In this document: piece after piece, positions 24,393-37,121 of the stretch
How positions within the stretch are numbered: position 1 is the stretch's first letter
Layout of the letters: each line of letters opens with the position of its first letter
From: Acetobacterales bacterium
Lineage (GTDB): Bacteria; Pseudomonadota; Alphaproteobacteria; JBBDQX01
Length of the DNA stretch: 64,000 bases
NCBI GenBank assembly: GCA_040905765.1
Contig: JBBDQX010000007.1
Span: 184-64,183 of the forward strand
Direction: 5' to 3'
Made by a program: the position numbers and the translations under genes
The notes under the pieces: model-generated
Seen by the model: only the letters and a program-made list of their open reading frames with translations
What the model was told of the DNA's origin: nothing
Databases searched by the model: none

Positions 24393-24439
24393 CGGCAGGC
24401 CGCGGGTCACAGGCGAGCGACTTTCCGCCAACGCGCCGC

Positions 24440-25243
24440 TCACATGTAGCCAGAGGCGCGGAGACGCTCGAAGGCATTCTCCGCTTCGTGGTCCATGGCC
24501 CGGCCGGCGCGCTCCTCCTGCTTCGTCGTCTCCAGTTCGGCGATGATCTCCGCGAGGGTCGCGGCGTCGCTGTCGATCGGATTGGTGATCCCGATCTCGC
24601 CGAGCGATCTGAAACGCTTGCCGTCCCGCGCAAAGTACAGCGGCACCACGGGAATGGCCTCGCGCTGGATGTAGCGCCAGATGTCGATTTCCGTCCAGTG
24701 CAGCAGCGGGTGGATGCGGATGTGGGTGCCGGGCGGGAAATCGGTCTTGTACTGGTCCCAGAACTCGGGCGGCTGGTCGCGGAAGTTCCAGTCGCCCTCG
24801 GCCCCGCGCGGGCTGAAGTAGCGTTCCTTGGCACGCATCGGCTGCTCGTCCCGGCGGATGCCGGCGATGATGCCGTCGAAGCCGTACTTCGCGACCGCCT
24901 GCTTCAGACCTGCCGTCTTGCGCGCCGCGAAGCGGGACGCAGGAGGCAGGCTGGGATCGACCTCCTCGATCGGCGGACAGGGATCCGCGATCAGGTTGAG
25001 CTCCCATTCCTTCACGTAGCGCTCGCGGAAGGCATAGGTCTCCGGGAACTCCGCGCCGGTGTCGAGATGCATCGCCGGGAACGGCAGGCGGCCGAAGAAA
25101 GCCTTCCTGGCGAGCCAGATCATCACGTTCGAATCCTTGCCGATCGACCACAGCATGCCGAGGCGGTCGAACCGGTTGAAGGCTTCGCGGAAGATGAAGA
25201 TGCTCTCGTGCTCGAGGCTATCCAGATGATCCATCGGGTGCAT
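24440..25243 (-). CDS. cysD: sulfate adenylyltransferase subunit 2
   Basis: PAPS-reductase-like fold (LWSIGKDSNVMIWLARKAF). Confidence 0.92.
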   Translation of the reverse strand: MHPMDHLDSLEHESIFIFREAFNRFDRLGMLWSIGKDSNVMIWLARKAFFGRLPFPAMHLDTGAEFPETYAFRERYVKEWELNLIADPCPPIEEVDPSLPPASRFAARKTAGLKQAVAKYGFDGIIAGIRRDEQPMRAKERYFSPRGAEGDWNFRDQPPEFWDQYKTDFPPGTHIRIHPLLHWTEIDIWRYIQREAIPVVPLYFARDGKRFRSLGEIGITNPIDSDAATLAEIIAELETTKQEERAGRAMDHEAENAFERLRASGYM

Positions 25244-25335: not shown

Positions 25336-26622
25336 TCAGGCGAAGACGTCGAGACCCGAGGGCGAGCGAGCCGGGGGCGCGGAAGTGAGCAGCGACGAAG
25401 AAGCGCCGGCCGGCTGAACCGAAGACAGGTACGGGAAGTCTCCGACAGACGGCGGAGCGAAGGAGCGGATCTGGAAAGGGTCGGATTGTGCCGGCTGGGT
25501 ACGCAGCGGCTCGGTCAGGCCCGGGACAACGAAGCCGAGCGCGAGGCCGGAAAGGATCTTGAACAGCTCGCGCCGCTGATCGGCCTGGCGGATGAGCACC
25601 GCGGCCGCGTCGCGCAGCACGCCCTCGTTGCGGCCGCTCTCGAAAGAGACCTCCCCGAGCTGCTGCTGGATGCCGGATACCATGCCGCGAATCTGCGACA
25701 ACGCCTGCCGGGCCTCGGCGATCGCGGTCCGCGCACCACCGGCATTGGCTGCACTGAGCAGATCCGTGGTCCGCAGGTCGGCCGAGAGCTCTCCCGCGAA
25801 CACCGGCTCCAGCGAAACCGGCACGGAGTCGCCCTCTTCGGTCCGCGTACCGACCTGGACGTCGAACCTCCGGGCGACGAGCGTACCGGCTACATCGAAG
25901 CCCGCATCGTCCGTCGCGGGTTCGATATCCGTGGCCGGATCGAAGTTTTCGTCGACGGTGACGACGATGCCGAAGCCGGTGAAGAAGATGCGGTCCGTGT
26001 CACCGGCTTCGGGCGCGGAGTCCGGTCCTTCCACACGCTCAACACGCCCTGTAGCGGTGTTGGTGAGGGTGAACAGGACGGCCGTCGCATCGTAGGCAAT
26101 GGTGAAGCCGTCACCGGCCGCGAGGTTGCCGGTCGCCGGGTCATCGAACGTTATCGAAGCGATCCCCGCCGGCGCACCGATGTCGGCCCCGATATTCGCG
26201 GCGGAGAAGTCGTTGCTGCCAGCGAGGACATTGATGCCGTCCTCTTCCGTCCTCTCGGCTATGCCGTTGAGACGGTCCAGCACCGAGCGGAAGCGGATGT
26301 CGAGGAGCGCCCGTTCGACATCGGTGGCATCGTCCTCGGCGGCCCGGGCCGCCAGTTCGTCGAGTTCGATCAGGGCCAGGTCGATCCGCTCCAGCGCCGA
26401 GGAAGCATTGGGTAGCACGGTGTTCGCCTGGCGCGCGTTGTCGCCGCCCTGGGCGACCAGCACGCTCTCCGCGCTCAGCCGGTTCTGCAGGAGCCCGCTG
26501 AGCAGATTGAGCCGCGTGTTGGTCGTGAAATAGGGATCGGCTACGACCTGAGGCCGGTTCCGCTCCACCAACGTCTGCGACACGAGCCTCTGATTGAGGC
26601 CCAGAGTGAGGAAATCGGGCAT
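25336..26622 (-). CDS. divergent flagellin-like protein (flagellin N/D1-like and C-like helices, acidic Asp/Thr/Gly-rich middle, about 60-aa C-terminal tail)
   Basis: Segments ALERIDLALIELDELAARAAED...LDRLNGIAERTEEDGINVLAGSNDFSAANIGADIG align to the flagellin D0/D1 consensus (...IDRIAEQTEFNGVKVLAQDNTLTIQVGANDGE). No other flagellar genes lie nearby. Confidence 0.55.
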   Translation of the reverse strand: MPDFLTLGLNQRLVSQTLVERNRPQVVADPYFTTNTRLNLLSGLLQNRLSAESVLVAQGGDNARQANTVLPNASSALERIDLALIELDELAARAAEDDATDVERALLDIRFRSVLDRLNGIAERTEEDGINVLAGSNDFSAANIGADIGAPAGIASITFDDPATGNLAAGDGFTIAYDATAVLFTLTNTATGRVERVEGPDSAPEAGDTDRIFFTGFGIVVTVDENFDPATDIEPATDDAGFDVAGTLVARRFDVQVGTRTEEGDSVPVSLEPVFAGELSADLRTTDLLSAANAGGARTAIAEARQALSQIRGMVSGIQQQLGEVSFESGRNEGVLRDAAAVLIRQADQRRELFKILSGLALGFVVPGLTEPLRTQPAQSDPFQIRSFAPPSVGDFPYLSSVQPAGASSSLLTSAPPARSPSGLDVFA

Positions 26623-26904
26623 GACGACCGTGTCGCCACCCTCGCCATTCGCGGCGGGCGCCTGCGCGGCACACCATCGCGACGCATCCTGCTACCGGCG
26701 TCTATGCGAACGGGATTCCGTCCCTGGAACCCCTCTAGACGGGGCGAATCTCCCTGCTAAAAGCCAAAACACATCGTTTCGCTACGACGCGCGAATGGTG
26801 GGCCGGATTCGCAGGTGCCGCAAAAACAAGGGAAGCTGTCGTGACCGCGACAACTTGACCTTGCGGCCGGATTATATCGGCGCATGGCGGGAAGCCAAGC
26901 GGAT

Positions 26905-27516
26905 TCAGCCGCCGGCGGCTATCCCGAGATCGCGGGTAAAGGCGGCATAGACGTCGGAAACGGCCGCATTCATTGCGCTGACCGTACCGGTCATCGTGCG
27001 GTCGGGCGCCTCACGCTCCACCTCGTACACCTTGATCAGCATCAGCTTGCCGTCGCTTTCGCGGCGCAGGCTGAATTCCATCGTCAAGGCGACGAGCGGA
27101 TTGCCCGGCCTGACGATCTGCTCCATCCGGCGCAGCTTGGCCCCGACGGAGTAGTCCGGATCGGCGCGCTGCTCGGTGGTGACGATCGTTCCGGCGACAT
27201 TTGCGCCGCGGAGATAGCTTACCAGCTGCCCCTGCAGCATCCGGGGCAGCGCTTCGGTCCAGTAATGGTAGTGATACTGCATCAGCCGGTCGGGCGCCTC
27301 GACGCTGGAATACACCAGCGCACGCTCGATCAGGAGACCGTCGGCAAGGAACCTGTCGACCTGCAGGGTACCCTGCAGGACCGGCGCCTGGGGCGAGGAA
27401 CCCTGGAAATCGACGCTGAGACGGTAGAACTGGTCGCGCGGCGCTTCCTGCGGTGCGGCGCAGGAGGCCGCCACCAGCACCAGCGCGAATACGCCCGCAA
27501 GCCGAGCGACGCTCAC
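26905..27516 (-). CDS. ABC-type transport auxiliary lipoprotein (YmbA/PqiC-like, COG3218)
   Basis: Lipobox LVAASC. ATGA-coupled to the mlaD-like gene; typical terminal gene of Mce/Mla-type operons. Confidence 0.75.
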   Translation of the reverse strand: MSVARLAGVFALVLVAASCAAPQEAPRDQFYRLSVDFQGSSPQAPVLQGTLQVDRFLADGLLIERALVYSSVEAPDRLMQYHYHYWTEALPRMLQGQLVSYLRGANVAGTIVTTEQRADPDYSVGAKLRRMEQIVRPGNPLVALTMEFSLRRESDGKLMLIKVYEVEREAPDRTMTGTVSAMNAAVSDVYAAFTRDLGIAAGG

Positions 27517-28526
27517 GGCCGGGTGCTCCGGAGGACCCCGTTCTCTTCATCCGGGGTCGTGCCGCGGAGCAACACGCCGGGATTCTGCCGTACCTGGCGG
27601 CTGAACTCGTACATGTTTCGGCTGGTACCCTCGAGGTTATAGGCGACCAAATCGACATGGCGGGCAAGGCTGTCGAGGACGTAACGCAGATCCTCCACCG
27701 CCTCCGAAACCCCTGCCTCGTTCTTTCCCACCAGATCGTTGACGGAGGAGATGATCCCGCTGAGTTCGCCCCGACTGTCGCGCAATCCCGCGCTGAGGTC
27801 GGCGAAATTCGAAGCGGTCGCCTCGAGATCGGTGAGAAATCCGTCGACCTGCGCCACACGCTCCTCCGACAGGAGCCTGTTCATCCGTCCGGCCGTAGCG
27901 TTCAGGGAGTTCGAGAAGGACTCGAGATCGGTCATCAGCACCGGCGTCGATTTGGCGACGTCGGCGACCACCTGGCGCAGGTTGGCGATGATGTCCACCA
28001 TTGCCGGCTCGCCCGCCGCACCGAATACCTCGACGAACCGGTTCACGTTCTCGAGCAGCGGCTTTATGTTGTTCTGCGACAGATCGAGAACCTCCGTCGC
28101 CACCTCCTCCAGAATCGCGAAGACATCGCCACCCTGAACGCTGGGGATGCGTTCGCCTGCGGGGATCATCTCGCCGCTGGCGCCGCCGCGGATGTTGATG
28201 GTGATGGCCGCCAGGAGGCCGGGGGCGGTCAGGCGCGCGATGCTGTCCTGCGGTATCGGCCAGCCTTCCGAGACCGACATCTCGATCCGGAAGCGGGTGT
28301 GATTCTCCTCGCGCACCGGGCGGATCGCCTCGACCTGCCCGACGGGATAGCCCTCGTACAGCACCTGCGTGCCGGTCTTCACACCACCGACGTTGTCGAA
28401 CAACGTGTAGTAGGACTCCGTACCGCCGGTCCTGCCGGTGAGTACCGCCACCATTCCGACGAGCGCCGCGACCGTGGCCATGACGAACAGCCCGACGACG
28501 ACGTAGTTTAAGCGATGGGTTTTCAT
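27513..28526 (-). CDS. Mce/MlaD family substrate-binding protein
   Basis: N-terminal TM anchor plus MCE domain (YYTLFDNVGGVKTGTQVLYEGYPVGQVEAI) with an extended C-terminal helical region. Confidence 0.85.
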   Translation of the reverse strand: MKTHRLNYVVVGLFVMATVAALVGMVAVLTGRTGGTESYYTLFDNVGGVKTGTQVLYEGYPVGQVEAIRPVREENHTRFRIEMSVSEGWPIPQDSIARLTAPGLLAAITINIRGGASGEMIPAGERIPSVQGGDVFAILEEVATEVLDLSQNNIKPLLENVNRFVEVFGAAGEPAMVDIIANLRQVVADVAKSTPVLMTDLESFSNSLNATAGRMNRLLSEERVAQVDGFLTDLEATASNFADLSAGLRDSRGELSGIISSVNDLVGKNEAGVSEAVEDLRYVLDSLARHVDLVAYNLEGTSRNMYEFSRQVRQNPGVLLRGTTPDEENGVLRSTRP

Positions 28527-29401
28527 GGTGCGTCCGCGGGCAGGTTTTCGCCGGTCAGGCGGGCGAGGTACTCGTCGACATCCAGTGTAACGTGCTCGGC
28601 GCGGCGGTTCAGCAGGTTCTGGACCCGCTCGCTCCGCGAGTTCCGGACCTCGTCGACGCTGCCAACCATGATGATCTCTCCGCGGTCAAGGAAGGTGATC
28701 CGATCGGCGATCTTGAACGCGCTTTCGAGTTCGTGGGTGACGACGACGATGGTGATGCCCAGGGCATCGCGCAGGCGCAGGATCAGGTCGTCGAGCGCCG
28801 AAGAAACCACCGGATCGAGGCCGGCCGAGGGCTCGTCGCAGAACAACAGTCGCGGGTCCATGATGACGGCGCGTGCGAAGGCCGCGCGCTTCAGCATGCC
28901 GCCGGACAGCTCAGACGGTATCAGGTCCTCGAAACCCGCGAGTTCAACCACTTCGAGCTTGAGGCGCATCATCACGCGCATCGTCTGCTCGTCGAGGTCG
29001 GTGTGCTCCCGCAGCGGCAGCATGATGTTTTCCCCGACCGTCAGGGAGCTGAGCAGCGCTCCGCCCTGGAACGCCACGCCCATGCGCTTGCGAATATCGT
29101 AGAGGTCGCGTCCGCTCATCCGGCAGAGATCGCGGCCGAGAAAGTCGATCGAGCCGGAAGTCGGCTGCTCCAGGGCCATCAGATGGCGCAGCAACGTGCT
29201 CTTGCCGGAGCCGCTGCCGCCCATGATCACCATCACCTCGCGGTCGTGGATGTCGAGGTCGATGCCCTTGAGGATCGTGCGCGGCCCGTAGGACTTGACC
29301 AGGTTCCGCACGCGGATCACCACCTCACGGCCATCGGCAGCGCTCGGCGGCGCGCCGTCGATCTGCTTCGGGCCGGGGTGCGTCGCCTCTGTCATGGCCA
29401 T
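28523..29401 (-). CDS. ABC transporter ATP-binding protein, MlaF-like
   Basis: Walker A (GGSGSGKST), signature (LSGGMLKRAAFARA) and Walker B (LLFCDEPSAGLD). Confidence 0.9.
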   Translation of the reverse strand: MAMTEATHPGPKQIDGAPPSAADGREVVIRVRNLVKSYGPRTILKGIDLDIHDREVMVIMGGSGSGKSTLLRHLMALEQPTSGSIDFLGRDLCRMSGRDLYDIRKRMGVAFQGGALLSSLTVGENIMLPLREHTDLDEQTMRVMMRLKLEVVELAGFEDLIPSELSGGMLKRAAFARAVIMDPRLLFCDEPSAGLDPVVSSALDDLILRLRDALGITIVVVTHELESAFKIADRITFLDRGEIIMVGSVDEVRNSRSERVQNLLNRRAEHVTLDVDEYLARLTGENLPADAP

Positions 29402-29403
29402 GC

Positions 29404-30219
29404 CTAGCGGGTGATGGCGAAGGCGAAGATCATGTCGGTGATGACGATCGCGCTGATGCCCTGCACCACCGCCCGCGTCGTCACACGGCCCACCCCCTCG
29501 GCGCCGCCGGAGACCGAGGCGCCGTTGACCACGCCGATCAGAGCGACGAGCGCGGCGAAGATCACGCTCTTGCCGATACCGTGCATCACGTCGTTGATGG
29601 AGAGTGCCTCGACGACCCGGTCGAAGTAGGTCGACATCGACATGCCCAGGTCGGCGCCGATATAGAGCCCGGCGCCGAACAGCGCGACGAGATCGGCATA
29701 AATGGTCAGCGCCGGCAGCATCACCATCATCGCGAACAGCGGCGGCGCGACGAGGAAGCGAACCGGGTTGATGCCCATGACCGTCAGGGCATCGACCTCC
29801 TGATTGATGCTCATCGTGCCGATCCGCGCCGCAAGGGCCGAACCGGACCGGCCGGCGACGAGAATCCCGGTGATCAGCGGCGCGAACTCGCGCGTCACCG
29901 ACAGCGCGACGCCGAGCGTCACCTTCTCCTCCGCCCCGAAGGCGCGCAGCGTGTAGATGCCCTGGATCGCCAGCATCACCCCGATGGTGATGGACAGCAC
30001 GGAGACGATCGGGATCGCCATGACCCCGATTTCCATCATCTGTTCGACGATCGCGGCAAGGCGCACCGGCTGTCGCCTGGCGTGGCCCGTAATCGCCCAG
30101 ACCAGGCTCTCCACCAGCAGCATCGCGGCGAAGCCGATCTCGGCCACGCCCGCGACGGTGCGGCGGCCGATCCGCTCGGCGAGGTCGAGAAAGCCCGCGC
30201 TGCGTGCGCTAGCCGGCAT
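29404..30219 (-). CDS. ABC transporter permease, MlaE-like
   Basis: MlaE family TM core. Start corrected to MPASARSAGFLDLAERIGRR; overlaps the STAS gene stop by 11 nt. Confidence 0.87.
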   Translation of the reverse strand: MPASARSAGFLDLAERIGRRTVAGVAEIGFAAMLLVESLVWAITGHARRQPVRLAAIVEQMMEIGVMAIPIVSVLSITIGVMLAIQGIYTLRAFGAEEKVTLGVALSVTREFAPLITGILVAGRSGSALAARIGTMSINQEVDALTVMGINPVRFLVAPPLFAMMVMLPALTIYADLVALFGAGLYIGADLGMSMSTYFDRVVEALSINDVMHGIGKSVIFAALVALIGVVNGASVSGGAEGVGRVTTRAVVQGISAIVITDMIFAFAITR

Positions 30220-30541
30220 TCGCCAGCGCGTCTTCGACGCTGTCGTGGATGGCGAACACCTGATCGAGGCGCGCCAGCGACAGCACCCGCATCGCCGCCG
30301 GGCTGACGCCGGCGAGGCGGAAATCGATCTTGTTCTTGCGGGCCCCCTGCAGGGCCTCGACGAGGCTGGCGACGCCCGAGGAGTCGATGTACGACACGCC
30401 CCCCATATCGACGAGGACGGCCTTGCCCTTCTTGATCTGGTCGAGCAGCAGGCTGCGCGCCTGCGGCGACGTGGACAGGTCGATGTCGCCCTGCAGCGCA
30501 ACGACCGTGGCCGCGGCCTCCTCCCTCACATCGTGTTTCAT
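30209..30541 (-). CDS. STAS-domain anti-sigma-factor-antagonist-like protein (RsbV/SpoIIAA-like, occupies the MlaB position)
   Basis: 110 aa STAS fold carrying the phosphorylatable motif VSYIDSSGVASLVEAL. Confidence 0.8.
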   Translation of the reverse strand: MKHDVREEAAATVVALQGDIDLSTSPQARSLLLDQIKKGKAVLVDMGGVSYIDSSGVASLVEALQGARKNKIDFRLAGVSPAAMRVLSLARLDQVFAIHDSVEDALANAG

Positions 30542-30562: not shown

Positions 30563-31051
30563 TCAGCAGCCCGTCACGCCGAACCTTTTTGCCATGCGCA
30601 ACAGGTTGCCGTGCCCGGACGGCGGCGGCAAGAAGCCGCTCTCGTCCATTACCTCGTTTATCAGGTGCACGCCGATGCCGCCCGGCCGGACCTCGTCGAG
30701 GGACCGCGGCTTGATGCGGCTGGCGTCCACGGTCGGCGCGAAGTCCCTGAGCAGTACGATCATGCTGTGCCGGTCGCGCAACAGCGCCACCACGATGACA
30801 CCGTCCGGCGCCGACTTGTAGGCGTGCCGGATCACATTCTGGCACGCCTCGTCCACCGCCAGCACGATGTCACAAACATCGTCGGATCCGAAGCCGCAGA
30901 GCTGCGCCGCCGCCGAGACGCCGGCCCGCACCAGCCGAAGCCGGTCGGGGCAGGACGGAACGCGCAATTCCACGAGCAGTTCGGCGTCCCGTTCGCCGAG
31001 CGCCGCCATGACGTCGGAGACGGAGGATTCCAGCGAGGGCGGGCTCGTCAT
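30563..31051 (-). CDS. anti-sigma regulatory factor / serine protein kinase (RsbW/SpoIIAB-like, HATPase_c)
   Basis: N-box (DEACQNVIRHAY) and G-box (RPGGIGVHLI). ATGA overlap with the upstream phosphatase gene. Confidence 0.8.
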   Translation of the reverse strand: MTSPPSLESSVSDVMAALGERDAELLVELRVPSCPDRLRLVRAGVSAAAQLCGFGSDDVCDIVLAVDEACQNVIRHAYKSAPDGVIVVALLRDRHSMIVLLRDFAPTVDASRIKPRSLDEVRPGGIGVHLINEVMDESGFLPPPSGHGNLLRMAKRFGVTGC

Positions 31052-32319
31052 GTTCCGATCGCCAGCAGGGTCACGTCGTCGTGCAGTTCCTCGTTAAAGG
31101 CGCGGATGCGCGCAGTGATCGACCGCACACGCTCGGGAAGCGGCAGGTAGCGGTACGACCGCACCAGCGTCTTGAAGCCCTCCTGCCCGAGCATCTGCTC
31201 GTGCTCCGAGGCCTCCGTCACACCGTCGGTGAAGACATACAGCGTCCCGCCCCGCAGTGCGATCTCACGATCCGGGAACTCGAGTCCCGGCACGATGCCC
31301 AGGGGCGGCTGCTCGGCCTCGAACTCGAGGAAGGTGCCGTCGGGCAGATGCAGCAAGGGCGGTTCGTGGCCGGCATTCGCCAGCGTCACCCTGCCCTCCG
31401 CGAGGTCCATCAGGCCTACAGCCATGGTGACGAACTTGCCGCGCGTCGCCGTCTCGCACACCTCTTCGTTGACATGCGCGAGGAGGGCGCCGGGATCGGG
31501 CTCGCGCTTGCCGAGCGCACGGAACACGCTGGCCGTCTTCGCCATCAGCAGCGCGGCGTCCATGCCCTTGCCGGAGACGTCGCCGAGTGCGAACAGCACC
31601 CTGCCGTCCGGAAGCGTCATATAATCGAAGAAGTCGCCGGACACTCGCCGTGCCGGCAGGTTGACGCCGAAAATGGGCAGACCGTCGCGGTCGGACTTGG
31701 GCAGCAGTGCACGCTGGATTTCTGCGGCAAGCTCGAGTTCGCGCTGAAGCCGTTCCTGGTCGACCAGCGCACGAGCCTGCTGGGCGTTGATGAAGGCCAT
31801 TGCGGCGGTCGAGGCGAGCACCCGAAGCACGCTCTGGTCGCGGCTGTCGAACAGGCCCTCGCCTCCGACCTTGTTGATCAGCTCGATGGCCCCGATGCAG
31901 CGGTCCTTGATGCTGAGCGGGGCGCACAGGATAGAGCGCGTGGTGAATCCGGTCTTCTCGTCGACCTGGGCCCCGAACGCGGGATCCTCGCGGACATCGC
32001 GCACGATCTCGCAGCTGTTGTCGCGGATGCTGCGGCCGACGATCCCCTGATCGATCGGCAGGCGCAGGCCGGAGATGTCGACCGGCCCGATGCAGACGGT
32101 GCAGACCACGTCCTGCCCGCCGTCCGGCGTTTCCTCCAGCATGAACAGGGAGGAGGCCTCCGCCGACAGGATCTCGGTGATCCGCTCCAGGCCGCGCCGG
32201 ATGGTCTGCTCGACGTCGAGCGTGTGCCCGAACTCCTCCGTCAGCATGACGAGAAGCTCAAGATACTCGGTGAACTCTGCGGCGGCGCCGGCCGTCGCGG
32301 GCGATCGCTCGTCTGGCAT
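31048..32319 (-). CDS. GAF domain-containing PP2C-type serine phosphatase (RsbU/SpoIIE-like)
   Basis: N-terminal GAF followed by PP2C motifs (SGDFFDY, ALGDVSGKGMDAALLM, GHEPPLL, VFTDGVTE). Confidence 0.85.
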   Translation of the reverse strand: MPDERSPATAGAAAEFTEYLELLVMLTEEFGHTLDVEQTIRRGLERITEILSAEASSLFMLEETPDGGQDVVCTVCIGPVDISGLRLPIDQGIVGRSIRDNSCEIVRDVREDPAFGAQVDEKTGFTTRSILCAPLSIKDRCIGAIELINKVGGEGLFDSRDQSVLRVLASTAAMAFINAQQARALVDQERLQRELELAAEIQRALLPKSDRDGLPIFGVNLPARRVSGDFFDYMTLPDGRVLFALGDVSGKGMDAALLMAKTASVFRALGKREPDPGALLAHVNEEVCETATRGKFVTMAVGLMDLAEGRVTLANAGHEPPLLHLPDGTFLEFEAEQPPLGIVPGLEFPDREIALRGGTLYVFTDGVTEASEHEQMLGQEGFKTLVRSYRYLPLPERVRSITARIRAFNEELHDDVTLLAIGT

Positions 32320-32371
32320 CGCGCTTACTATGCCCCCGACGGCGGCCTGAGGGAACGGCGACCGCCCCGGA

Positions 32372-32719
32372 CTACGGCGTCTCAAGTTCGCCGTTGTCCT
32401 CGACTACATGGTCGACCATGTCGGTCAGCATGCTGCGGACATGCGGATCGGCAACCAGGTAGAACACCTGCCGTCCCTGGCGCTCCGCCTGCAGCAGACG
32501 CGCGGCACGCAGCAGCCGCAGATGGTGGCTGACCAGCGACGGCGACAATCCGAGCCGGGCCGCCATGTCCCCCACCGAGACCTTGCGGTTGAGACAGGTG
32601 AGGATGATGCCGAGACGCGTCGGATCGCTCATCAGGCGGAACATCTCCGCCAGTTCTATTACGGCGTCGTCGCCGACGCGCGGGTCGTTGCCACCCTCCA
32701 CCGGGGCGTTCTTCAGCAT
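32372..32719 (-). CDS. ArsR/SmtB family metal-sensing transcriptional regulator
   Basis: wHTH (LSDPTRLGIILTCL...VSHHLRLLR) with an intact alpha-5 metal site (DPHVRSMLTDMVDHVVE, matching DxHx10HxxE). Confidence 0.85.
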   Translation of the reverse strand: MLKNAPVEGGNDPRVGDDAVIELAEMFRLMSDPTRLGIILTCLNRKVSVGDMAARLGLSPSLVSHHLRLLRAARLLQAERQGRQVFYLVADPHVRSMLTDMVDHVVEDNGELETP

Positions 32720-32859: not shown

Positions 32860-32995
32860 TGAAAATAACATCAATGCCGAATAAATTGTGAATCTATGAA
32901 AACTGAAAAATACAAAGTTCATAATTTATACTTGAATATTTGTTGAATCGTAGAGCTGTACATTTGAACAGGAGTTCAGATGTGGAAGTGCGGGA
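32860..32995. promoter_or_regulatory. AT-rich divergent promoter/operator region between the ArsR-led operon and the metal ABC importer
   Basis: About 130 bp at roughly 28% GC in a roughly 68% GC genome. Contains repeated TTGAA/TGAA half-sites and the imperfect palindrome TTCATAATTTATACTTGAA. SD GGGAGA lies 7 nt before the SBP ATG. Confidence 0.4.
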
Positions 32996-33002
32996 GATAT
33001 CG

Positions 33003-33968
33003 ATGTTGACCATTCTGCGCCGGACCCTGCTGGCAATGGCCGCCTGCCTGGCGCTGGCCGTGCTGCCGCTGCGTGCGGAGGCGGCCTACAGGATCGTCGC
33101 CACCATCGGCATGGTAAGCGACATCGCGTCGAACGTGGCCGGCGACCGGGCCGAGGTCGAGGCGCTGATGGGTTCCGGGGTGGACCCCCACCTCTACACG
33201 ACCACCCGCTCCGACATGGCGCGGTTGCTGCGCGCCGACGTGGTCTTCTACAACGGCCTGCTGCTCGAAGGGAAAATGAGCGACGCCCTGATCCGGGTCG
33301 CCACCCGGGGCAAGCCCGTGTTCGCGGTGACAGAACTGCTGGACGAGAAGTTCCTGCTCGCGCCGCCGGAATTTCAGGGCCACCACGACCCGCACGTCTG
33401 GATGGATCCGTCGGCGTGGATCCGGGCCGTGGATGTGGTGCGTGACCGCCTTTCCACCTACGACCCGCCCGGGAAGGACGACTATGCGCGCAATGCCGAG
33501 GCCTACAAGGCGACGCTGCGGGAACTGGATGTCTATGCCGAACGCGTGCTCGGTACGGTGCCGGAATCGTCGCGGGTGCTCGTCACAGCGCATGACGCCT
33601 TCAACTATTTCGGTCGGCGCTACGGCTACGAGGTCGTCGGCATCCAGGGCATGAGCACCGAATCGGAGGCCGGCGTGAAGCAGATCGGGGCGCTGCTCGA
33701 CATGCTGGTCGACCGGAAGATCGGCGCCGTGTTCGTCGAGACGACGGTGTCGGAGCGCAATATCCGCGCCCTTATCGAGGGGGCGGCAGCGCGCGGCCAC
33801 GAGGTGACGGTCGGCGGTTCGCTGTTTTCCGACGCCATGGGCGAACCCGGCACCTACGAGGGCACCTACCTCGGCATGATGGACCACAACGTCACCGCCA
33901 TCGCCCGCGCCCTCGGCGGCAATGCGCCGGCAGGCGGCAGGCGCGGCGAACTGGCGCGGGGGAACTGA
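33003..33968 (+). CDS. metal ABC transporter substrate-binding protein (cluster A-I, TroA/SitA/MntC/ZnuA family)
   Basis: Signal peptide plus the TroA-fold metal-binding His/Asp region (HDPHVWMDP). Confidence 0.9.
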   Translation: MLTILRRTLLAMAACLALAVLPLRAEAAYRIVATIGMVSDIASNVAGDRAEVEALMGSGVDPHLYTTTRSDMARLLRADVVFYNGLLLEGKMSDALIRVATRGKPVFAVTELLDEKFLLAPPEFQGHHDPHVWMDPSAWIRAVDVVRDRLSTYDPPGKDDYARNAEAYKATLRELDVYAERVLGTVPESSRVLVTAHDAFNYFGRRYGYEVVGIQGMSTESEAGVKQIGALLDMLVDRKIGAVFVETTVSERNIRALIEGAAARGHEVTVGGSLFSDAMGEPGTYEGTYLGMMDHNVTAIARALGGNAPAGGRRGELARGN

Positions 33969-33970
33969 GG

Positions 33971-34744
33971 ATGGAGTCCCGTACCGGCTCCGGAGCGCCT
34001 CTGCGCGTCAGCGACCTGACGATTGCCTACCGCGACAAGCCGGTGCTGTGGGAGGTGGACTACACGGCGCCGGCAAGCGGCATGATCGCGGTGGTGGGGC
34101 CCAATGGCGCCGGCAAATCGACGCTGATCAAGGCCTGCCTCGGCCTCGTACCGGCAGCGGCCGGCAGCATCGAGGTGTTCGGGCAGCCGGCCAGGCGGCA
34201 GCGGCGGCTCATCGGCTACCTGCCGCAGCGCGAGTCGGTGGACTGGGATTTCCCCGCGTCGGCGCTGGATGTCGTGACGATGGGCCTGTACGGCCGGATC
34301 GGCTGGCTGCGCCCGGTGCGCAGGCGCCACCGCGAGGAGGCCCTGACCTATCTGGAGAAGGTCAACATGGCCGATTTCGCCGACAGGCAGATCGGTCAGC
34401 TGTCGGGCGGCCAGCAGCAACGCGTGTTCCTCGCGCGCGCGCTGGCGCAGGATGCCCGGCTGTATTTCATGGACGAGCCCTTCGCCGGCGTGGACGCGGC
34501 CACCGAGCGAGCCATCGTGGCCGTGCTGGAGGAGATGGACGCGCAGGGGCGGACGGTGATCTGCGTGCACCACGACCTGGATACGGTACCGAAGTACTTC
34601 CACCATGTGCTGCTGCTGAACAACCGCGTCGTCGCGGCCGGCAGCGTCGGCGAAGCGTTTACCCGCGAGAACCTGCAGAAGACTTACGGCGGAAGGCTAG
34701 CGCTGCTGGAACAGGCCGGCGAGGCGCTGGCACGCAGCGCATGA
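33971..34744 (+). CDS. metal ABC transporter ATP-binding protein
   Basis: Walker A (GPNGAGKST), signature (LSGGQQQRV) and Walker B (LYFMDEPFAGVD). Confidence 0.9.
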   Translation: MESRTGSGAPLRVSDLTIAYRDKPVLWEVDYTAPASGMIAVVGPNGAGKSTLIKACLGLVPAAAGSIEVFGQPARRQRRLIGYLPQRESVDWDFPASALDVVTMGLYGRIGWLRPVRRRHREEALTYLEKVNMADFADRQIGQLSGGQQQRVFLARALAQDARLYFMDEPFAGVDAATERAIVAVLEEMDAQGRTVICVHHDLDTVPKYFHHVLLLNNRVVAAGSVGEAFTRENLQKTYGGRLALLEQAGEALARSA

Positions 34745-36144
34745 ACACCGCCACCTCCCTCGCCACCGTTTCCTACGACTGGCCGCCGCTGCACGAGGTG
34801 CTGGCGGTGCTCACTCTCAATGCCGGGTACAACGCGGCCAGCGTGGTGGTCGGTACGATGCTGCTGGGCATAGCCGCCGGGATGGTCGGCACCTTCGCGC
34901 TGCTGCGCAAGCGGGCGCTGATGAGCGACGCGCTGAGCCATGCGACGCTGCCCGGCATCTGCATGGCCTTCATCGTCGCCGCGGCCATAGGTACCACTGG
35001 CCGAAGCCTGCCGGTGCTGATCGCCGGCGCGGCGGTGAGCGGCATCGTCGGCGTGCTTTTCGCCCAGTTCATCGTCGCCAATTCGCGTCTTCGGCAGGAT
35101 GTCGCGATCGGCGTGGTGCTGAGCGTATTCTTCGGCCTGGGGGTCGTGCTGCTGAGCTACATCCAGACGATGCAGACCGGATCTCAGGGCGGGCTGCATC
35201 ATTTCATCCTGGGTCAGACGGCGGCGCTGAAGCGCAGCGACGCCCTGTTGATGGGCGGCATCGCGCTGCTCGCGCTGCTTGCCACGACGGCTCTGTTCAA
35301 GGAGTTCCGGCTGATCTGCTTCGATGAGGATTTCGCGCGCGTGCAGGACTGGCCGGTCTCGCGGATCGACCTGCTGATGATGACCCTCGTGGTGGTCGTG
35401 ACGGTCGTCGGCCTGCAGGCGGTCGGCCTGCTGCTGATTGTCGCCTTCGTCATCATCCCGCCGACCGCTGCTCGCTTCTGGACCGACCGGCTCGGCGCCA
35501 TGACCCTGCTCGCCGCGGCATTCGGCGGCCTGAGTGGCTATCTGGGTTCCAGTGCCTCCGCCCTGTTCCCGGACCTGCCGACCGGAGCGGTCATCGTGCT
35601 GGTCTCGGGCGCGATCTTCGTCGTCAGCATGTTCCTCGCACCGGGGCGGGGGGTCGTCGCCGATGTCCTCCGGCGCGTCCGCATGCGGACGCGGATGGCG
35701 CAGGAGCATGTGCTGCGCAGCTATTTCGAACTGTTCGAGACAGGCCACTACCGGGACTGGAGGACGTCGCGGGTACCGCGCGAGGCGCTGCTGCTGTACC
35801 GGGACTGGCACCGGCGCGGGCTCGGTCTGCTCCTGCGGCTGATGGCGCTGCGCGGTCTCCTGACGCTGCATGGGGATGAGGTCGCGCTGACCGACAAGGG
35901 GCGGGAGGAGGCGTTCCGGATCACCCGCACCCACCGGCTCTGGGAACAGTACCTGACGACCCACGCCGACCTCGCCCCGGCACAGGTGCACGGACCGGCC
36001 GAACTGGTCGAGCATGTGCTGACGCCACAGATGATCGCCGACCTTGAGGAGCGCCTCGCCGTGGTGGGACGCCGCCCCCGAGCGGACGCCATGCCGCAGA
36101 GCGCGCATCCCCTTCCCGACGCCGGCGAGGGAGCGACGCCATGA
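34741..36144 (+). CDS. ABC-3 family metal permease fused to a C-terminal DtxR/MntR-like repressor domain
   Basis: About 290-aa TM core (ABC-3) followed by about 170 aa with a wHTH-like segment (LRSYFELFETG...LTDKGREEAFRITRTHRLWEQYL) and a DtxR-like dimerisation/metal domain. ATGA overlap with the ATPase gene. Confidence 0.85.
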   Translation: MNTATSLATVSYDWPPLHEVLAVLTLNAGYNAASVVVGTMLLGIAAGMVGTFALLRKRALMSDALSHATLPGICMAFIVAAAIGTTGRSLPVLIAGAAVSGIVGVLFAQFIVANSRLRQDVAIGVVLSVFFGLGVVLLSYIQTMQTGSQGGLHHFILGQTAALKRSDALLMGGIALLALLATTALFKEFRLICFDEDFARVQDWPVSRIDLLMMTLVVVVTVVGLQAVGLLLIVAFVIIPPTAARFWTDRLGAMTLLAAAFGGLSGYLGSSASALFPDLPTGAVIVLVSGAIFVVSMFLAPGRGVVADVLRRVRMRTRMAQEHVLRSYFELFETGHYRDWRTSRVPREALLLYRDWHRRGLGLLLRLMALRGLLTLHGDEVALTDKGREEAFRITRTHRLWEQYLTTHADLAPAQVHGPAELVEHVLTPQMIADLEERLAVVGRRPRADAMPQSAHPLPDAGEGATP

Positions 36145-37121
36145 CCCTCACCGTTCAGGACTTCCTGCAGCTCGACGTGCCGGCGATGCTGGCGGCGTTC
36201 CTGGCCTGCGCCTGCTGCGCCCTGCTCGGCAACTTCCTCGTGCTGCGACGGCAGAGCCTGATGGGCGATGCCATCGCCCACGCGGTGCTGCCGGGCATCA
36301 TCCTCGGCTTCCTGCTGACGGGATCGCGCGCCGTGGTGCCCATCCTGGCCGGCGCGCTCGGCGCAGGCATCGTGGCTGCCGTGCTGATCGAGCTTGTGCG
36401 GCGCCTCGGCCGCGTCGAGCCCGGCGCGGCGATGGGAGTCGTCTTCTCGATCATGTTCGCGCTAGGCGTCGTGCTAATGGAGCAGGCGGCGGCGAGTGCA
36501 GTCGACCTGGATGCCGACTGCATCCTCTACGGCCAACTCGAGGACATTCTCTGGCTCGCGCCGACCGGCTGGTCGTCGCTGCTCGATCCGACGGTGTGGG
36601 CAGACATGCCGCGCGAAGTGGTGACGCTGTTCGTCGTGACGGCATTCTGCGCAGCCATGGTGGCGATGTTCTACAAGGAGCTGAAGATCACGTCCTTCGA
36701 CCCGGATCTGGCGACGACGCTCGGCATATCGGCCAAGCTGTTCCACTACGGCCTGATGACCCTCGTGGCTGCCGCCTGCGTCGCCGCCTTCGAGGCGGTG
36801 GGGTCGATACTGGTCATCGCCATGCTGATCGTCCCGGCATCCATCGCCCGGCTGCTGACCGACCGGCTGGCGGTCCAGATCCGCCTCAGCATCCTCGCCG
36901 CACTGGCCATAGGGCCGGGCGGCTACGTGCTTGCCGCCTTCGGACCATTCTGGATCGGCGGCACCGACTCGCTCAACGCGGCCGGCATGATGGCGACGCT
37001 TTCGGGGGTCCTGCTGGTCGTGACGATCCTGATCGCGCCCCGCTACGGAATGCTGGCGCGGCGGCGACACGCACGCCGGCTATGGGTACAGCCGGCTGAA
37101 GAACCCGAGGGATCGGCCTGA
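36141..37121 (+). CDS. ABC-3 family metal permease (second TM subunit)
   Basis: 326 aa multi-TM ABC-3 protein; ATGA overlap with the preceding permease. Confidence 0.88.
   Translation: MTLTVQDFLQLDVPAMLAAFLACACCALLGNFLVLRRQSLMGDAIAHAVLPGIILGFLLTGSRAVVPILAGALGAGIVAAVLIELVRRLGRVEPGAAMGVVFSIMFALGVVLMEQAAASAVDLDADCILYGQLEDILWLAPTGWSSLLDPTVWADMPREVVTLFVVTAFCAAMVAMFYKELKITSFDPDLATTLGISAKLFHYGLMTLVAAACVAAFEAVGSILVIAMLIVPASIARLLTDRLAVQIRLSILAALAIGPGGYVLAAFGPFWIGGTDSLNAAGMMATLSGVLLVVTILIAPRYGMLARRRHARRLWVQPAEEPEGSA

What the first reader, a model, noticed from the sequence alone, without database searches (positions are those of the whole stretch)
30209..30541. MlaB-position STAS protein retains the phosphorylatable DSSG serine of RsbV/SpoIIAA
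The 110-aa STAS protein contains ...VSYIDSSGVASLVEAL.... The D-S-S-G context matches the conserved phospho-serine loop of SpoIIAA/RsbV antagonists. Its stop overlaps the mlaE start by 11 nt. This is direct sequence evidence that it is a phospho-regulated antagonist rather than a structural MlaB.
Basis: seen in the sequence. Interest (0 to 1): 0.6.

Follow-up and report, generated by a model that had tools for sequence, protein, structure and literature searches.

The report
Kinase-switched STAS subunit of lipid transporter
A small RsbV-like protein with a phosphorylatable serine sits between its own kinase and phosphatase genes and a membrane-lipid ABC transporter. This arrangement recurs in four bacterial lineages and suggests the transporter is switched on and off by phosphorylation, an idea proposed for E. 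coli MlaB but never tied to a kinase.

Summary
ORF 30209-30541(-) encodes a 110-aa STAS protein. Ser54 in its DSSG loop aligns with RsbV S56, SpoIIAA S58 and E. coli MlaB T52. Its stop overlaps the mlaE ATG by 11 nt.

The serine alone proves nothing: MlaB and kinase-less STAS-MlaE fusions keep a Thr at the same site.

What matters is the context. One translationally coupled operon encodes a GAF-PP2C phosphatase, an RsbW-like Ser kinase, the STAS protein, MlaE, MlaF, a long MlaD and a PqiC-like lipoprotein.

In related loci with STAS at 50% identity or more, a kinase lies upstream in 67/67. MlaE or MlaF lies immediately downstream in 67/68, and the phosphatase is present in 42/44. The kinase-STAS-MlaE/F core also occurs in Gammaproteobacteria, Acidobacteriota and Planctomycetota.

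In one locus this DSSG-type STAS is fused in frame to MlaE and still follows the kinase-phosphatase gene. No sigma factor gene lies in eight Pfam-annotated neighbourhoods.

Best reading: a phospho-switchable, RsbV-class stand-in for MlaB that gates an Mpc/Mla-type lipid transporter. I found no published description in the open-access library. Phosphorylation and MlaF binding remain untested.

The parts
31048..32385 (-). GAF-SpoIIE (PP2C/PPM) serine phosphatase, RsbU-like. This is the longest ORF (TTG start). Homologue alignments begin at residues 12-41, so the true start is probably the Met at residue 23 (about 32319).
   Evidence: Pfam SpoIIE 2.9e-46 and GAF_2 1.3e-12. The catalytic motifs VSGDFxD, GDVSGKG, NAGH, FTDGxTE and DDxT are conserved at 90% or more across 41 orthologues. 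Present upstream of the STAS gene in 42/44 related loci with STAS at 50% identity or more.
30563..31051 (-). RsbW/SpoIIAB-like GHKL serine kinase, 162 aa. Its ATG overlaps the phosphatase stop (ATGA).
   Evidence: Pfam HATPase_c_2 1.5e-23. Best solved relative is B. subtilis RsbW 6m36_A, E 3.2e-13. The N-box (EAcqN.irHAY, E68/N72) and G2 box (PGGLG) are conserved at 90% or more in 75 orthologues; the G1 box reads D103-x-A rather than D-x-G. Upstream of the STAS gene in 67/67 loci at 50% identity or more and 5/5 at 40-50%. Joined to the phosphatase in one polypeptide in at least 35 of 65 loci.
30209..30541 (-). The finding itself: a 110-aa single-domain STAS protein of the RsbV/SpoIIAA class. 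A GAGGGGA Shine-Dalgarno-like motif lies just upstream of its ATG.
30374..30385 (-). Codons for D53-S54-S55-G56. S54 is the predicted phospho-acceptor at the N-terminus of helix alpha2.
   Evidence: Aligned with RsbV S56, SpoIIAA S58, TM1442 and MlaB T52. Invariant in 61 homologues. 120/120 homologues carry DSSG. Kept in the Acidobacteriota and Planctomycetota versions.
30209..30219 (-). The 11-nt overlap ATGCCGGCTAG between the STAS stop and the mlaE start (translational coupling).
   Evidence: Called gene boundaries in relatives show tight junctions: 11-nt overlap in L015 and L103, 14 nt in L106, 1 nt in L105, gaps of 3-4 nt in L102 and L104, and gaps of 15 and 35 nt in L017 and L101.
29404..30219 (-). 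MlaE-family ABC permease, 271 aa, with no STAS domain of its own. Its N-terminus starts where the STAS-MlaE linker lies in fused relatives.
   Evidence: Pfam MlaE 6.4e-68. TIGR00056 scores 209.6 bits, just below its cutoff of 212.2. Compared with the fused proteins L099 and L100.
28523..29401 (-). MlaF-like ABC ATPase, 292 aa, with a conserved C-terminal extension (...D.D.YL.rLtG).
   Evidence: NCBIfam MlaF model PRK11831 is the best hit, 6.9e-59, below its equivalog cutoff. Conservation across 60 orthologues.
27513..28526 (-). Long MCE protein, 337 aa: an MlaD domain plus a helical C-terminal extension. Its start overlaps the mlaF stop by 4 nt.
   Evidence: Pfam MlaD 1.2e-13. Orthologues hit Helical_needle. 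Same length class as Brucella MpcD, 331 aa (PMC12436622).
26905..27516 (-). PqiC-like ABC_trans_aux lipoprotein, 203 aa, with lipobox ...VAASC. Its start overlaps the mlaD stop by 4 nt.
   Evidence: Pfam ABC_trans_aux 1.1e-11. Conserved as the last gene of the cassette.
26833..26856 (-). Terminator-like hairpin plus T-run just after the last gene; the probable operon end.
   Evidence: This is a consensus match only, and such sites are not enriched over shuffles.

Best explanation
The 110-aa protein is an RsbV/SpoIIAA-class STAS protein. It serves as the cytoplasmic STAS subunit (the MlaB equivalent) of an Mpc/Mla-type MCE lipid ABC transporter made of MlaE, MlaF, a long MlaD and a PqiC-like lipoprotein. 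Reversible phosphorylation of Ser54 makes it switchable.

The RsbW-like kinase encoded just upstream phosphorylates S54. The GAF-domain PP2C phosphatase removes the phosphate in response to a ligand sensed by its GAF domain.

By analogy with E. coli MlaB, unphosphorylated STAS docks through helix alpha2 on MlaF and stabilises or activates the ATPase. There MlaB is needed for MlaF association and ATPase activity, T52 sits at the centre of the MlaB-MlaF interface, and T52E weakens binding. A phosphate on S54 would release STAS and switch lipid transport off.

Shown here: gene content, family assignments, the position and invariance of S54, intact catalytic motifs, and conserved synteny across four lineages. 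Inferred: that S54 is phosphorylated, that STAS binds MlaF or MlaE, and the sign of the switch.
For: (1) Family and site. TIGR00377 scores 79 bits against a cutoff of 53.45. The fold matches RsbV, TM1442 and SpoIIAA best. S54 aligns with the known phospho-serines and is invariant.

(2) A complete writer and eraser are encoded in the same translationally coupled operon. The kinase N-box Glu/Asn and G2 box are conserved. All PP2C metal-binding motifs are conserved. The two enzymes are one polypeptide in at least 35 of 65 related loci, which implies a shared substrate.

(3) Link to the transporter. With STAS at 50% identity or more, a kinase lies upstream in 67/67 loci, MlaE or MlaF lies immediately downstream in 67/68, and MlaD follows in 39/45. 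At 40-50% identity (Acidobacteriota, Planctomycetota) the kinase is present in 5/5 and MlaE/F in 4/4. Below 40% identity none of these appear, 0/6. Starting from the MlaE side, 3 of 3 look-ups have the same trio upstream. In L062 and L073 the STAS gene abuts mlaF directly.

(4) Rosetta-stone evidence. Brucella MpcE and the Azospirillum and Ruegeria MlaE proteins carry an N-terminal STAS domain (PMC12436622). P0389 in L107 is a DSSG-type STAS fused in frame to MlaE, still preceded by the PP2C-kinase gene.

(5) No sigma factor gene lies in eight Pfam-annotated neighbourhoods.

(6) E. coli precedent. MlaB T52A abolishes ATPase activity, and T52E reduces MlaF binding. Both groups proposed phosphoregulation but knew of no kinase (PMC5016091, PMC7367683).
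Against: There is no experimental evidence of phosphorylation or of STAS-MlaF binding in any member.

The kinase G1 box is D-x-A instead of D-x-G throughout the family, so ATP binding is assumed, not shown.

This STAS is only 15-22% identical to MlaB and to the fused STAS domains, and it has the extra beta5/alpha4. Docking on MlaF like MlaB is therefore an extrapolation.

Some MCE transporters work with no STAS at all, for example Veillonella MlaEFD (PMC10665443).

One locus (L058) has the same trio in front of a CHASE2-cyclase instead of Mla genes, so the module is not restricted to this transporter.

The 80 metagenome loci were retrieved with a DSSG-containing pattern. They cannot be used to measure conservation of the serine.

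The STAS-MlaE fusion is a single metagenomic case and could be a lost stop codon or an assembly error.

Acidobacteriota, Planctomycetota and one gammaproteobacterial form have no adjacent phosphatase.
Confidence: 0.6

Rival explanations
1. Partner switch on the transporter with the kinase as effector. The RsbW-like protein binds and inhibits MlaF or MlaE as an 'anti-ATPase' factor. Unphosphorylated STAS antagonises it by sequestering it, exactly as RsbV frees sigma-B. In this reading STAS never touches the transporter.
For: The STAS is RsbV-class in sequence and fold, not MlaB-class. Canonical partner switching works this way. The conserved kinase-STAS-MlaE/F synteny fits this reading equally well.
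Against: The kinase is fused to the phosphatase in about half of the loci. STAS, not the kinase, is the gene that abuts or overlaps mlaE or mlaF, and STAS is fused to MlaE in L107. Related transporters carry a STAS domain, not a kinase domain (PMC12436622).
Confidence: 0.15
2. Classical anti-sigma partner switch. The kinase is an anti-sigma factor for an unlinked sigma or other transcription factor. The Mla-like genes are simply co-transcribed with, or are a target of, that stress module.
For: The closest characterised relatives (RsbW, SpoIIAB, UsfX) are anti-sigma factors. Sources annotate homologues as 'anti-sigma B factor antagonist'.
Against: No sigma factor gene lies in eight Pfam-annotated neighbourhoods. 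Adjacency to mlaE or mlaF holds in 67/68 loci and across four lineages, with overlapping stop and start codons, which is subunit-like rather than regulon-like. There is also a STAS-MlaE fusion. The rest of each genome could not be searched, so an unlinked sigma factor cannot be excluded.
Confidence: 0.15
3. Constitutive structural MlaB equivalent. The serine is kept for structural or catalytic reasons, as T52 is in MlaB. The adjacent kinase-like protein is a degenerate binding partner without kinase activity.
For: Ser or Thr at this position is kept in kinase-less MlaB and in STAS-MlaE fusions. The kinase G1 box lacks the canonical Gly.
Against: A PP2C phosphatase with every catalytic motif intact is conserved next to, or fused to, the kinase, which makes little sense without phosphorylation. 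The kinase N-box Glu/Asn and G2 box are 90% or more conserved.
Confidence: 0.07

Closest known systems
B. subtilis RsbU-RsbV-RsbW and SpoIIE-SpoIIAA-SpoIIAB partner-switching modules
   Same: The same three protein families: a PP2C phosphatase, a single-domain STAS with a D-S-x-G phospho-serine at the alpha2 N-terminus, and a GHKL Ser kinase. The best sequence and fold matches of the STAS and the kinase are RsbV and RsbW in 6m36.
   Different: No sigma factor gene accompanies the module. It is welded to an MCE lipid ABC transporter operon. The phosphatase sensor is a GAF domain. Phosphatase and kinase are often one polypeptide. The kinase G1 box is D-x-A. The STAS signature is DSSG[VI]A rather than DS[ST]GLG.
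E. coli MlaB in MlaFEDB
   Same: A STAS protein encoded with mlaE, mlaF and mlaD, with Ser or Thr at the equivalent of T52. T52 lies at the MlaB-MlaF interface, and phosphoregulation has been hypothesised (PMC5016091, PMC7367683).
   Different: MlaB is a minimal STAS without beta5/alpha4. It fails to match this protein at family level (NF033618 scores 23.7 against a cutoff of 90; fold rank 40-46). E. coli has no adjacent kinase or phosphatase, and mlaB is the last gene of its operon rather than the gene before mlaE.
Brucella abortus Mpc (Mla-Pqi chimeric) system, mpcEFDA (PMC12436622)
   Same: The same cassette and order: MlaE, MlaF, an MlaD of about 330 aa with a helical extension, and a PqiC-like lipoprotein. 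No MlaC or MlaA lies in the operon. A STAS element sits immediately N-terminal to MlaE.
   Different: In Mpc the STAS is an MlaB-like domain fused to MlaE, and no kinase or phosphatase is reported. The Azospirillum and Ruegeria fused homologues examined here also have none in their neighbourhoods. In the window the STAS is a separate RsbV-class protein with its own kinase and phosphatase.
Vibrio fischeri SypE-SypA, and M. tuberculosis Rv1364c
   Same: A bifunctional RsbW-like kinase plus PP2C phosphatase polypeptide sets the phosphorylation state of one STAS protein, whose output is not a classical sigma switch (PMC10120452, PMC4517449). The Rv1364c PP2C-kinase structure 3ke6 is a weak hit of the window kinase.
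   Different: SypE is built kinase-REC-phosphatase and controls biofilm polysaccharide through an unknown SypA partner. Rv1364c carries its own STAS domain and is linked to SigF (my own knowledge). Neither is coupled to a transporter.
Bordetella BtrU-BtrV-BtrW
   Same: A proteobacterial partner-switching trio that controls a membrane export machine (type III secretion) rather than only transcription (my own knowledge, not checked here).
   Different: It controls a different machine, has no STAS-transporter gene fusion or overlap, and was not analysed here.

Membership tests
Anti-sigma factor antagonist / RsbV-SpoIIAA-type STAS (TIGR00377, PF01740) | Profile score above the curated cutoff | tested here: met
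   TIGR00377 scores 79.0 bits against a cutoff of 53.45. Pfam STAS scores 75.9 against 22.6.
Anti-sigma factor antagonist / RsbV-SpoIIAA-type STAS (TIGR00377, PF01740) | Full STAS fold with a fifth strand and a fourth helix | tested here: met
   The AF2 model (pLDDT 93.2) has the order b1 b2 a1 b3 a2 b4 a3 b5 a4. The top Foldseek hits are RsbV, TM1442 and SpoIIAA, TM 0.83-0.91.
Anti-sigma factor antagonist / RsbV-SpoIIAA-type STAS (TIGR00377, PF01740) | Ser or Thr phospho-acceptor in the D-S-x-G loop at the alpha2 N-terminus | tested here: met
   S54 aligns with RsbV S56 and SpoIIAA S58 and is invariant in homologues.
Anti-sigma factor antagonist / RsbV-SpoIIAA-type STAS (TIGR00377, PF01740) | Actually phosphorylated by a cognate kinase and dephosphorylated by a PP2C | not testable with these tools
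   Both genes are adjacent and their catalytic motifs are conserved, but there is no biochemical evidence.
Anti-sigma factor antagonist / RsbV-SpoIIAA-type STAS (TIGR00377, PF01740) | Antagonises an anti-sigma factor, so a sigma factor is the final target | tested here: inconclusive
   No sigma gene lies in eight Pfam-annotated neighbourhoods. The rest of each genome was not searchable.
SpoIIAA equivalog (TIGR02886) | Profile score above the equivalog cutoff | tested here: not met
   32.3 bits against a cutoff of 114.75.
MlaB (NF033618 equivalog) | Profile score above the equivalog cutoff | tested here: not met
   23.7 bits against a cutoff of 90. E. coli MlaB itself scores 127.
MlaB (NF033618 equivalog) | Minimal STAS fold ending after alpha3 | tested here: not met
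   The window protein has beta5 and alpha4. MlaB chains rank 40-46 in the fold search, TM 0.61-0.65.
MlaB (NF033618 equivalog) | Encoded in one operon with mlaE, mlaF and mlaD | tested here: met
   Conserved in 67/68 related loci.
MlaB (NF033618 equivalog) | Binds the MlaF helical subdomain and is required for MlaF stability and ATPase activity | not testable with these tools
No complex prediction was available.
Mpc-type (Mla-Pqi chimeric) MCE transporter | Gene order MlaE, MlaF, MlaD of about 330 aa with a helical extension, then a PqiC-like lipoprotein | tested here: met
   Pfam MlaE, ABC_tran, MlaD (337 aa) and ABC_trans_aux, all overlapping or abutting. Architecture as described in PMC12436622.
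Mpc-type (Mla-Pqi chimeric) MCE transporter | STAS domain fused to the N-terminus of the MlaE subunit | tested here: not met
   The window MlaE is 271 aa with no STAS, and the STAS is a separate gene with an 11-nt overlap. The 120 closest MlaE homologues are all unfused. One fused variant exists, P0389.
Partner-switching system (PP2C + GHKL Ser kinase + STAS) | All three components are encoded together with catalytic residues intact | tested here: met
   Caveat: the kinase G1 box is D-x-A.
Partner-switching system (PP2C + GHKL Ser kinase + STAS) | Mutually exclusive binding of one component to two partners | not testable with these tools
   Which partners are involved (kinase versus MlaF for STAS, or STAS versus MlaF for the kinase) is inference only.

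The most novel reading that the evidence does not exclude
This cassette is a natural, widespread case of an ABC transporter gated post-translationally by a dedicated partner-switching module. An envelope-spanning MCE lipid transporter is controlled by a GAF-sensing phosphatase and a Ser kinase that set the phosphorylation state of the transporter's own STAS subunit, which then binds or leaves the MlaF ATPase. This would supply the missing kinase logic behind the MlaB-T52 phosphoregulation hypothesis. It would also extend partner switching from sigma factors to direct control of membrane lipid transport.
Probability: 0.5. Interest if true: 0.75.

Novelty: new variant of a known kind. Interest (0 to 1): 0.65.

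Why it matters
How Mla/MCE lipid transporters are regulated is an open question. Two E. coli studies proposed that the STAS subunit MlaB is phosphorylated on T52, but they found no kinase and no phosphorylation (PMC5016091, PMC7367683).

In this cassette the kinase and phosphatase genes are attached directly to the STAS and transporter genes. The arrangement occurs in Alpha- and Gammaproteobacteria, Acidobacteriota and Planctomycetota.

That makes the hypothesis directly testable with defined components. At least one named species has the same split gene order: Ferruginivarius sediminum (L105). MlaE homologues are also recorded for Magnetospirillum sp. UT-4 and a Paramagnetospirillum record.

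If confirmed, it would be a clear bacterial example of signal-dependent, reversible phospho-gating of an ABC transporter through an accessory subunit. It would also be a new output class for partner-switching modules and a lead for STAS-domain regulation of transporters more broadly.

Tried and rejected
(1) DSSG alone as proof of phosphoregulation: rejected. MlaB T52 and the kinase-less STAS-MlaE fusions keep a Thr in the same column.

(2) The STAS gene as a simple fission product of the fused MpcE-type STAS domain: rejected. It is only 15-18% identical to those domains. They hit STAS_2 and mlaB_1 rather than TIGR00377, and they lack beta5/alpha4. Non-orthologous replacement by an RsbV-class STAS fits better.

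No complex model could be made.

(4) The genome-contig scan with the single protein returned only 14 loci. Wider sampling came from the metagenome scan with alignment A1. Its search pattern contained DSSG, so those loci were used for synteny only, not for serine conservation.

(5) Search for a sigma factor in the neighbourhoods: none in the kinase-type loci. The only one seen lies at the edge of the kinase-less Ruegeria locus L100.

(6) ArsR gene 32372-32719(-) as part of the operon: probably not. It is conserved only in the closest relative, L001, and faces a divergent metal-uptake operon.

(7) Six full-text literature searches combined partner switching, kinase, phosphatase and anti-sigma terms with MlaB, MlaE, MCE and lipid transport. 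None found a description of this arrangement. The library lacks most subscription journals, so prior description cannot be excluded.

(8) The promoter and terminator scan gave only a weak terminator-like site after the last gene.

(9) Context of a related TLC/MFS-STAS fusion (P0142): no kinase nearby, so no generalisation is drawn.
Full report
OBSERVATION

The ORF at 30209-30541 on the minus strand is real. It is 110 aa, starts with ATG, and lies 21 nt after the stop of the upstream gene, behind a GAGGGGA Shine-Dalgarno-like motif. It contains VSYIDSSGVASLVEAL. It matches Pfam STAS at E 2.5e-21. It also matches the NCBIfam anti-sigma-factor-antagonist superfamily model TIGR00377 at 79 bits, above the cutoff of 53.45.

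HMMER alignments to solved structures and a MAFFT alignment place D53-S54-S55-G56 on the phospho-loop of TM1442 (MDSAG), RsbV (MDS56TG) and SpoIIAA (MDS58SG). They also place it on E. coli MlaB (VDT52GG). The acceptor is therefore S54, the first serine of the motif.

An AlphaFold2 model built on 61 homologues has pLDDT 93.2. It puts S54 at the first turn of helix alpha2. The STAS stop and the mlaE ATG overlap by exactly 11 nt, ATGCCGGCTAG. The window comes from an Acetobacterales MAG contig.

WHAT SURROUNDS IT

Seven minus-strand genes are packed with overlaps or very short gaps (2 nt between mlaE and mlaF, 21 nt between the kinase and STAS genes):
- a GAF-SpoIIE (PP2C) phosphatase, 31048-32385
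- an RsbW-like HATPase_c_2 kinase, 30563-31051, with an ATGA overlap onto the phosphatase gene
- the STAS gene
- MlaE, 29404-30219
- an MlaF-like ATPase, 28523-29401
- a 337-aa MCE/MlaD protein, 27513-28526
- an ABC_trans_aux (PqiC-like) lipoprotein, 26905-27516

A terminator-like hairpin follows the last gene.

The transporter half has the same composition and order as the Brucella abortus Mpc 'Mla-Pqi chimeric' system mpcEFDA. There MpcE carries an N-terminal MlaB-like STAS domain (PMC12436622).

WHICH KIND OF STAS

By sequence and by fold, the protein is RsbV/SpoIIAA-class, not MlaB-class. The MlaB equivalog model scores 23.7 bits against a cutoff of 90. The best PDB sequence hit is the phosphorylatable TM1442 at 1.4e-14, whereas MlaB scores E 0.16. 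Foldseek ranks RsbV, TM1442, SpoIIAA and mycobacterial antagonists first, with TM 0.83-0.91. MlaB chains rank 40-46 with TM 0.61-0.65. The protein has the fifth strand and fourth helix that MlaB lacks (PMC7367683).

WHY THE SERINE ALONE IS NOT DECISIVE

MlaB keeps T52 at this position and no kinase is known for it. T52A kills ATPase activity and T52E weakens MlaF binding (PMC5016091, PMC7367683). I retrieved two annotated STAS-MlaE fusions: Azospirillum thermophilum (383 aa) and Ruegeria sp. B32 (374 aa). Both lie in MlaE-ABC-MlaD-lipoprotein cassettes with no kinase or phosphatase nearby. Both keep a Thr in the same column, LDTVG and LDTGG. A hydroxyl residue capping alpha2 is thus a general STAS feature.

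WHAT IS DECISIVE: THE CONSERVED CASSETTE

I fetched 108 related loci and located homologues of the window proteins by tblastn. The counts below rest on the first 98 of them. The table gives counts by STAS identity to the window protein.

| STAS identity | Kinase upstream | MlaE or MlaF immediately downstream | PP2C upstream | MlaD within 4 kb |
|---|---|---|---|---|
| 50% or more | 67/67 | 67/68 | 42/44 | 39/45 |
| 40-50% (Acidobacteriota, Planctomycetota) | 5/5 | 4/4 | 0/5 | 1/4 |
| Below 40% (Actinomycetota, Chloroflexota, Armatimonadota) | 0/6 | 0/6 | 0/6 | 0/3 |

A gammaproteobacterial MAG has kinase-STAS-MlaE-ABC-MlaD-lipoprotein without an adjacent phosphatase.

I also started from the other side. 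The 120 closest MlaE homologues are all unfused. All 3 that I looked up have the trio upstream. They are a Paramagnetospirillum-like contig, the named species Ferruginivarius sediminum (split genes, as in the window) and an Ectothiorhodospiraceae MAG.

Phosphatase and kinase form one GAF-SpoIIE-HATPase_c_2 polypeptide in at least 35 of 65 loci. In two loci the STAS gene abuts mlaF rather than mlaE. No sigma factor gene appears in eight Pfam-annotated neighbourhoods.

The Mla-linked STAS subfamily has its own signature, (Y/H)(I/M)DSSG(V/I)A.L(V/I)E. It is kept even in Acidobacteriota and Planctomycetota. The unlinked relatives read DSTGLG, NSAGLR or DGT.

Caveat: the 80 metagenome loci were retrieved with a pattern that contains DSSG. 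I therefore take serine conservation from the independent sets instead. These show 120/120 with DSSG in the word-indexed search, invariance in 61 aligned homologues, and 90% or more in a set including 50%-cluster representatives, where the exceptions are one DTAG and one DGAA.

ENZYME COMPETENCE

Across 75 kinase orthologues, the N-box (EAcqN.irHAY, with E68 and N72) and the G2 box (PGGLG) are conserved at 90% or more. The G1 aspartate D103 is also conserved, but the following Gly is Ala throughout (D-x-A). I treat this as an open caveat.

Across 41 phosphatase orthologues, all PPM metal-binding motifs are conserved at 90% or more: VSGDFxD, GDVSGKG, NAGH, FTDGxTE and DDxT. An intact phosphatase, often fused to the kinase, argues that phosphorylation is real.

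A ROSETTA-STONE CASE

I searched the protein collection with a STAS+MlaE concatenate. This returned P0389, 386 aa, 62% identical over the whole query, with Pfam STAS+MlaE. It is a DSSG-type, full-length STAS fused in frame to MlaE. In its contig (L107) it still follows a fused PP2C-kinase gene and precedes MlaF and MlaD. It is a single metagenomic example and could be an artefact. If real, it means this phosphorylatable STAS works at the transporter.

MECHANISM PROPOSED

The STAS protein acts as the transporter's MlaB-equivalent subunit. Unphosphorylated, it docks through alpha2 on MlaF and supports assembly and ATPase activity. The kinase phosphorylates S54 and releases it. The GAF-PP2C restores it in response to an unknown ligand.

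- Shown: gene content, family assignments, site position and invariance, motif integrity, synteny, and the fusion.
- Inferred: phosphorylation itself, binding to MlaF, and the sign of the switch.

I put about 0.85 on 'phosphorylatable STAS with a cognate kinase and phosphatase'. I put about 0.65-0.7 on 'its target is the transporter', and about 0.4 on 'the unphosphorylated form is the active one'. Overall confidence in the stated model is 0.6.

RIVALS

- The kinase, not STAS, touches the transporter, and STAS is its antagonist (0.15).
- A classical anti-sigma switch acts on an unlinked sigma factor, with the transporter as a passenger or a target (0.15).
- The protein is a constitutive structural STAS with a dead kinase (about 0.07).

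One locus (L058) has the same trio in front of a CHASE2-nucleotidyl cyclase instead of Mla genes. The module can therefore be re-used with other outputs.

COMPARISON WITH WHAT IS KNOWN

The system works like an RsbU-RsbV-RsbW or SypE-SypA phospho-switch and is a member of the same protein families. It is not an MlaB family member, since two defining features were tested and not met. It does occupy the STAS slot of an Mpc/Mla-type transporter.

Six full-text searches combined partner switching, kinase, phosphatase and anti-sigma terms with MlaB, MlaE, MCE and lipid transport. They found only the papers that pose MlaB phosphoregulation as an open hypothesis. The library omits most subscription journals, so priority cannot be asserted firmly.

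VERDICT

This is a new variant of known kinds: a partner-switching module attached to an MCE lipid ABC transporter. It is of real interest because it makes the MlaB phosphoregulation hypothesis testable with defined genes.

Noticed in passing
window 34744-36144 (+), within the operon 32940-37121 (+): A 467-aa ABC-3 family metal permease carries a C-terminal DtxR-type 'Fe_dep_repr_C' metal-binding and dimerisation domain. It sits in a ZnuA/TroA-type uptake operon made of ZnuA, an ATPase and two ABC-3 permeases. A repressor-type metal-sensing domain fused to a permease suggests direct metal feedback on the transporter.
   Followed up: partly
window 32372-32719 (-): An ArsR/SmtB-family regulator lies directly upstream of the phosphatase gene and divergent from the metal-uptake operon. 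It is conserved next to the cassette only in the closest relative (L001). It is more likely the regulator of the metal operon than part of the STAS cassette.
   Followed up: partly
window 25336-26622 (-): A 428-aa protein matches only the N-terminal flagellin region (Flagellin_N, 8.4e-08), with no C-terminal flagellin domain detected. It lies just downstream of the transporter operon.
   Followed up: no
L107 1602-2762 (protein P0389): A natural in-frame fusion of the DSSG-type STAS to MlaE (386 aa). It is still preceded by a fused PP2C-kinase gene and followed by MlaF and MlaD. Only this one example was seen.
   Followed up: yes
L058 4218-8616: The same PP2C, kinase and STAS trio (STAS 59% identical to the window's) is followed by a 748-aa CHASE2 nucleotidyl cyclase instead of Mla genes. 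This is the only exception among 68 testable loci.
   Followed up: partly
Proteins P0142, P0155, P0246, P0264 (830-844 aa); locus L108: STAS domains 47-56% identical to the window protein are fused to the C-terminus of TLC/MFS-type transporters. No kinase lies next to P0142.
   Followed up: partly
window 30563-31051 (-) and 75 orthologues: The kinase family has D-x-A where GHKL kinases have the D-x-G of the G1 box, while the N-box and G2 box are canonical. Whether ATP binding is affected is unknown.
   Followed up: partly
L017, L101, L103, L104 and other loci, compared with window 30563-32385: Phosphatase and kinase are a single GAF-SpoIIE-HATPase_c_2 polypeptide (555-590 aa) in at least 35 of 65 related loci. 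In the window and in Ferruginivarius sediminum they are split, with an ATGA overlap in the window.
   Followed up: yes
Proteins P0143 and P0238: These are HATPase_c_2-STAS fusion proteins (238-250 aa) whose STAS domains are close relatives of the window protein. Kinase and substrate sit in one chain.
   Followed up: no
window 22512-25243 (-): The sulfate-activation genes cysD and a fused cysN/cysC lie downstream of the flagellin-like gene. This is ordinary gene content.
   Followed up: no
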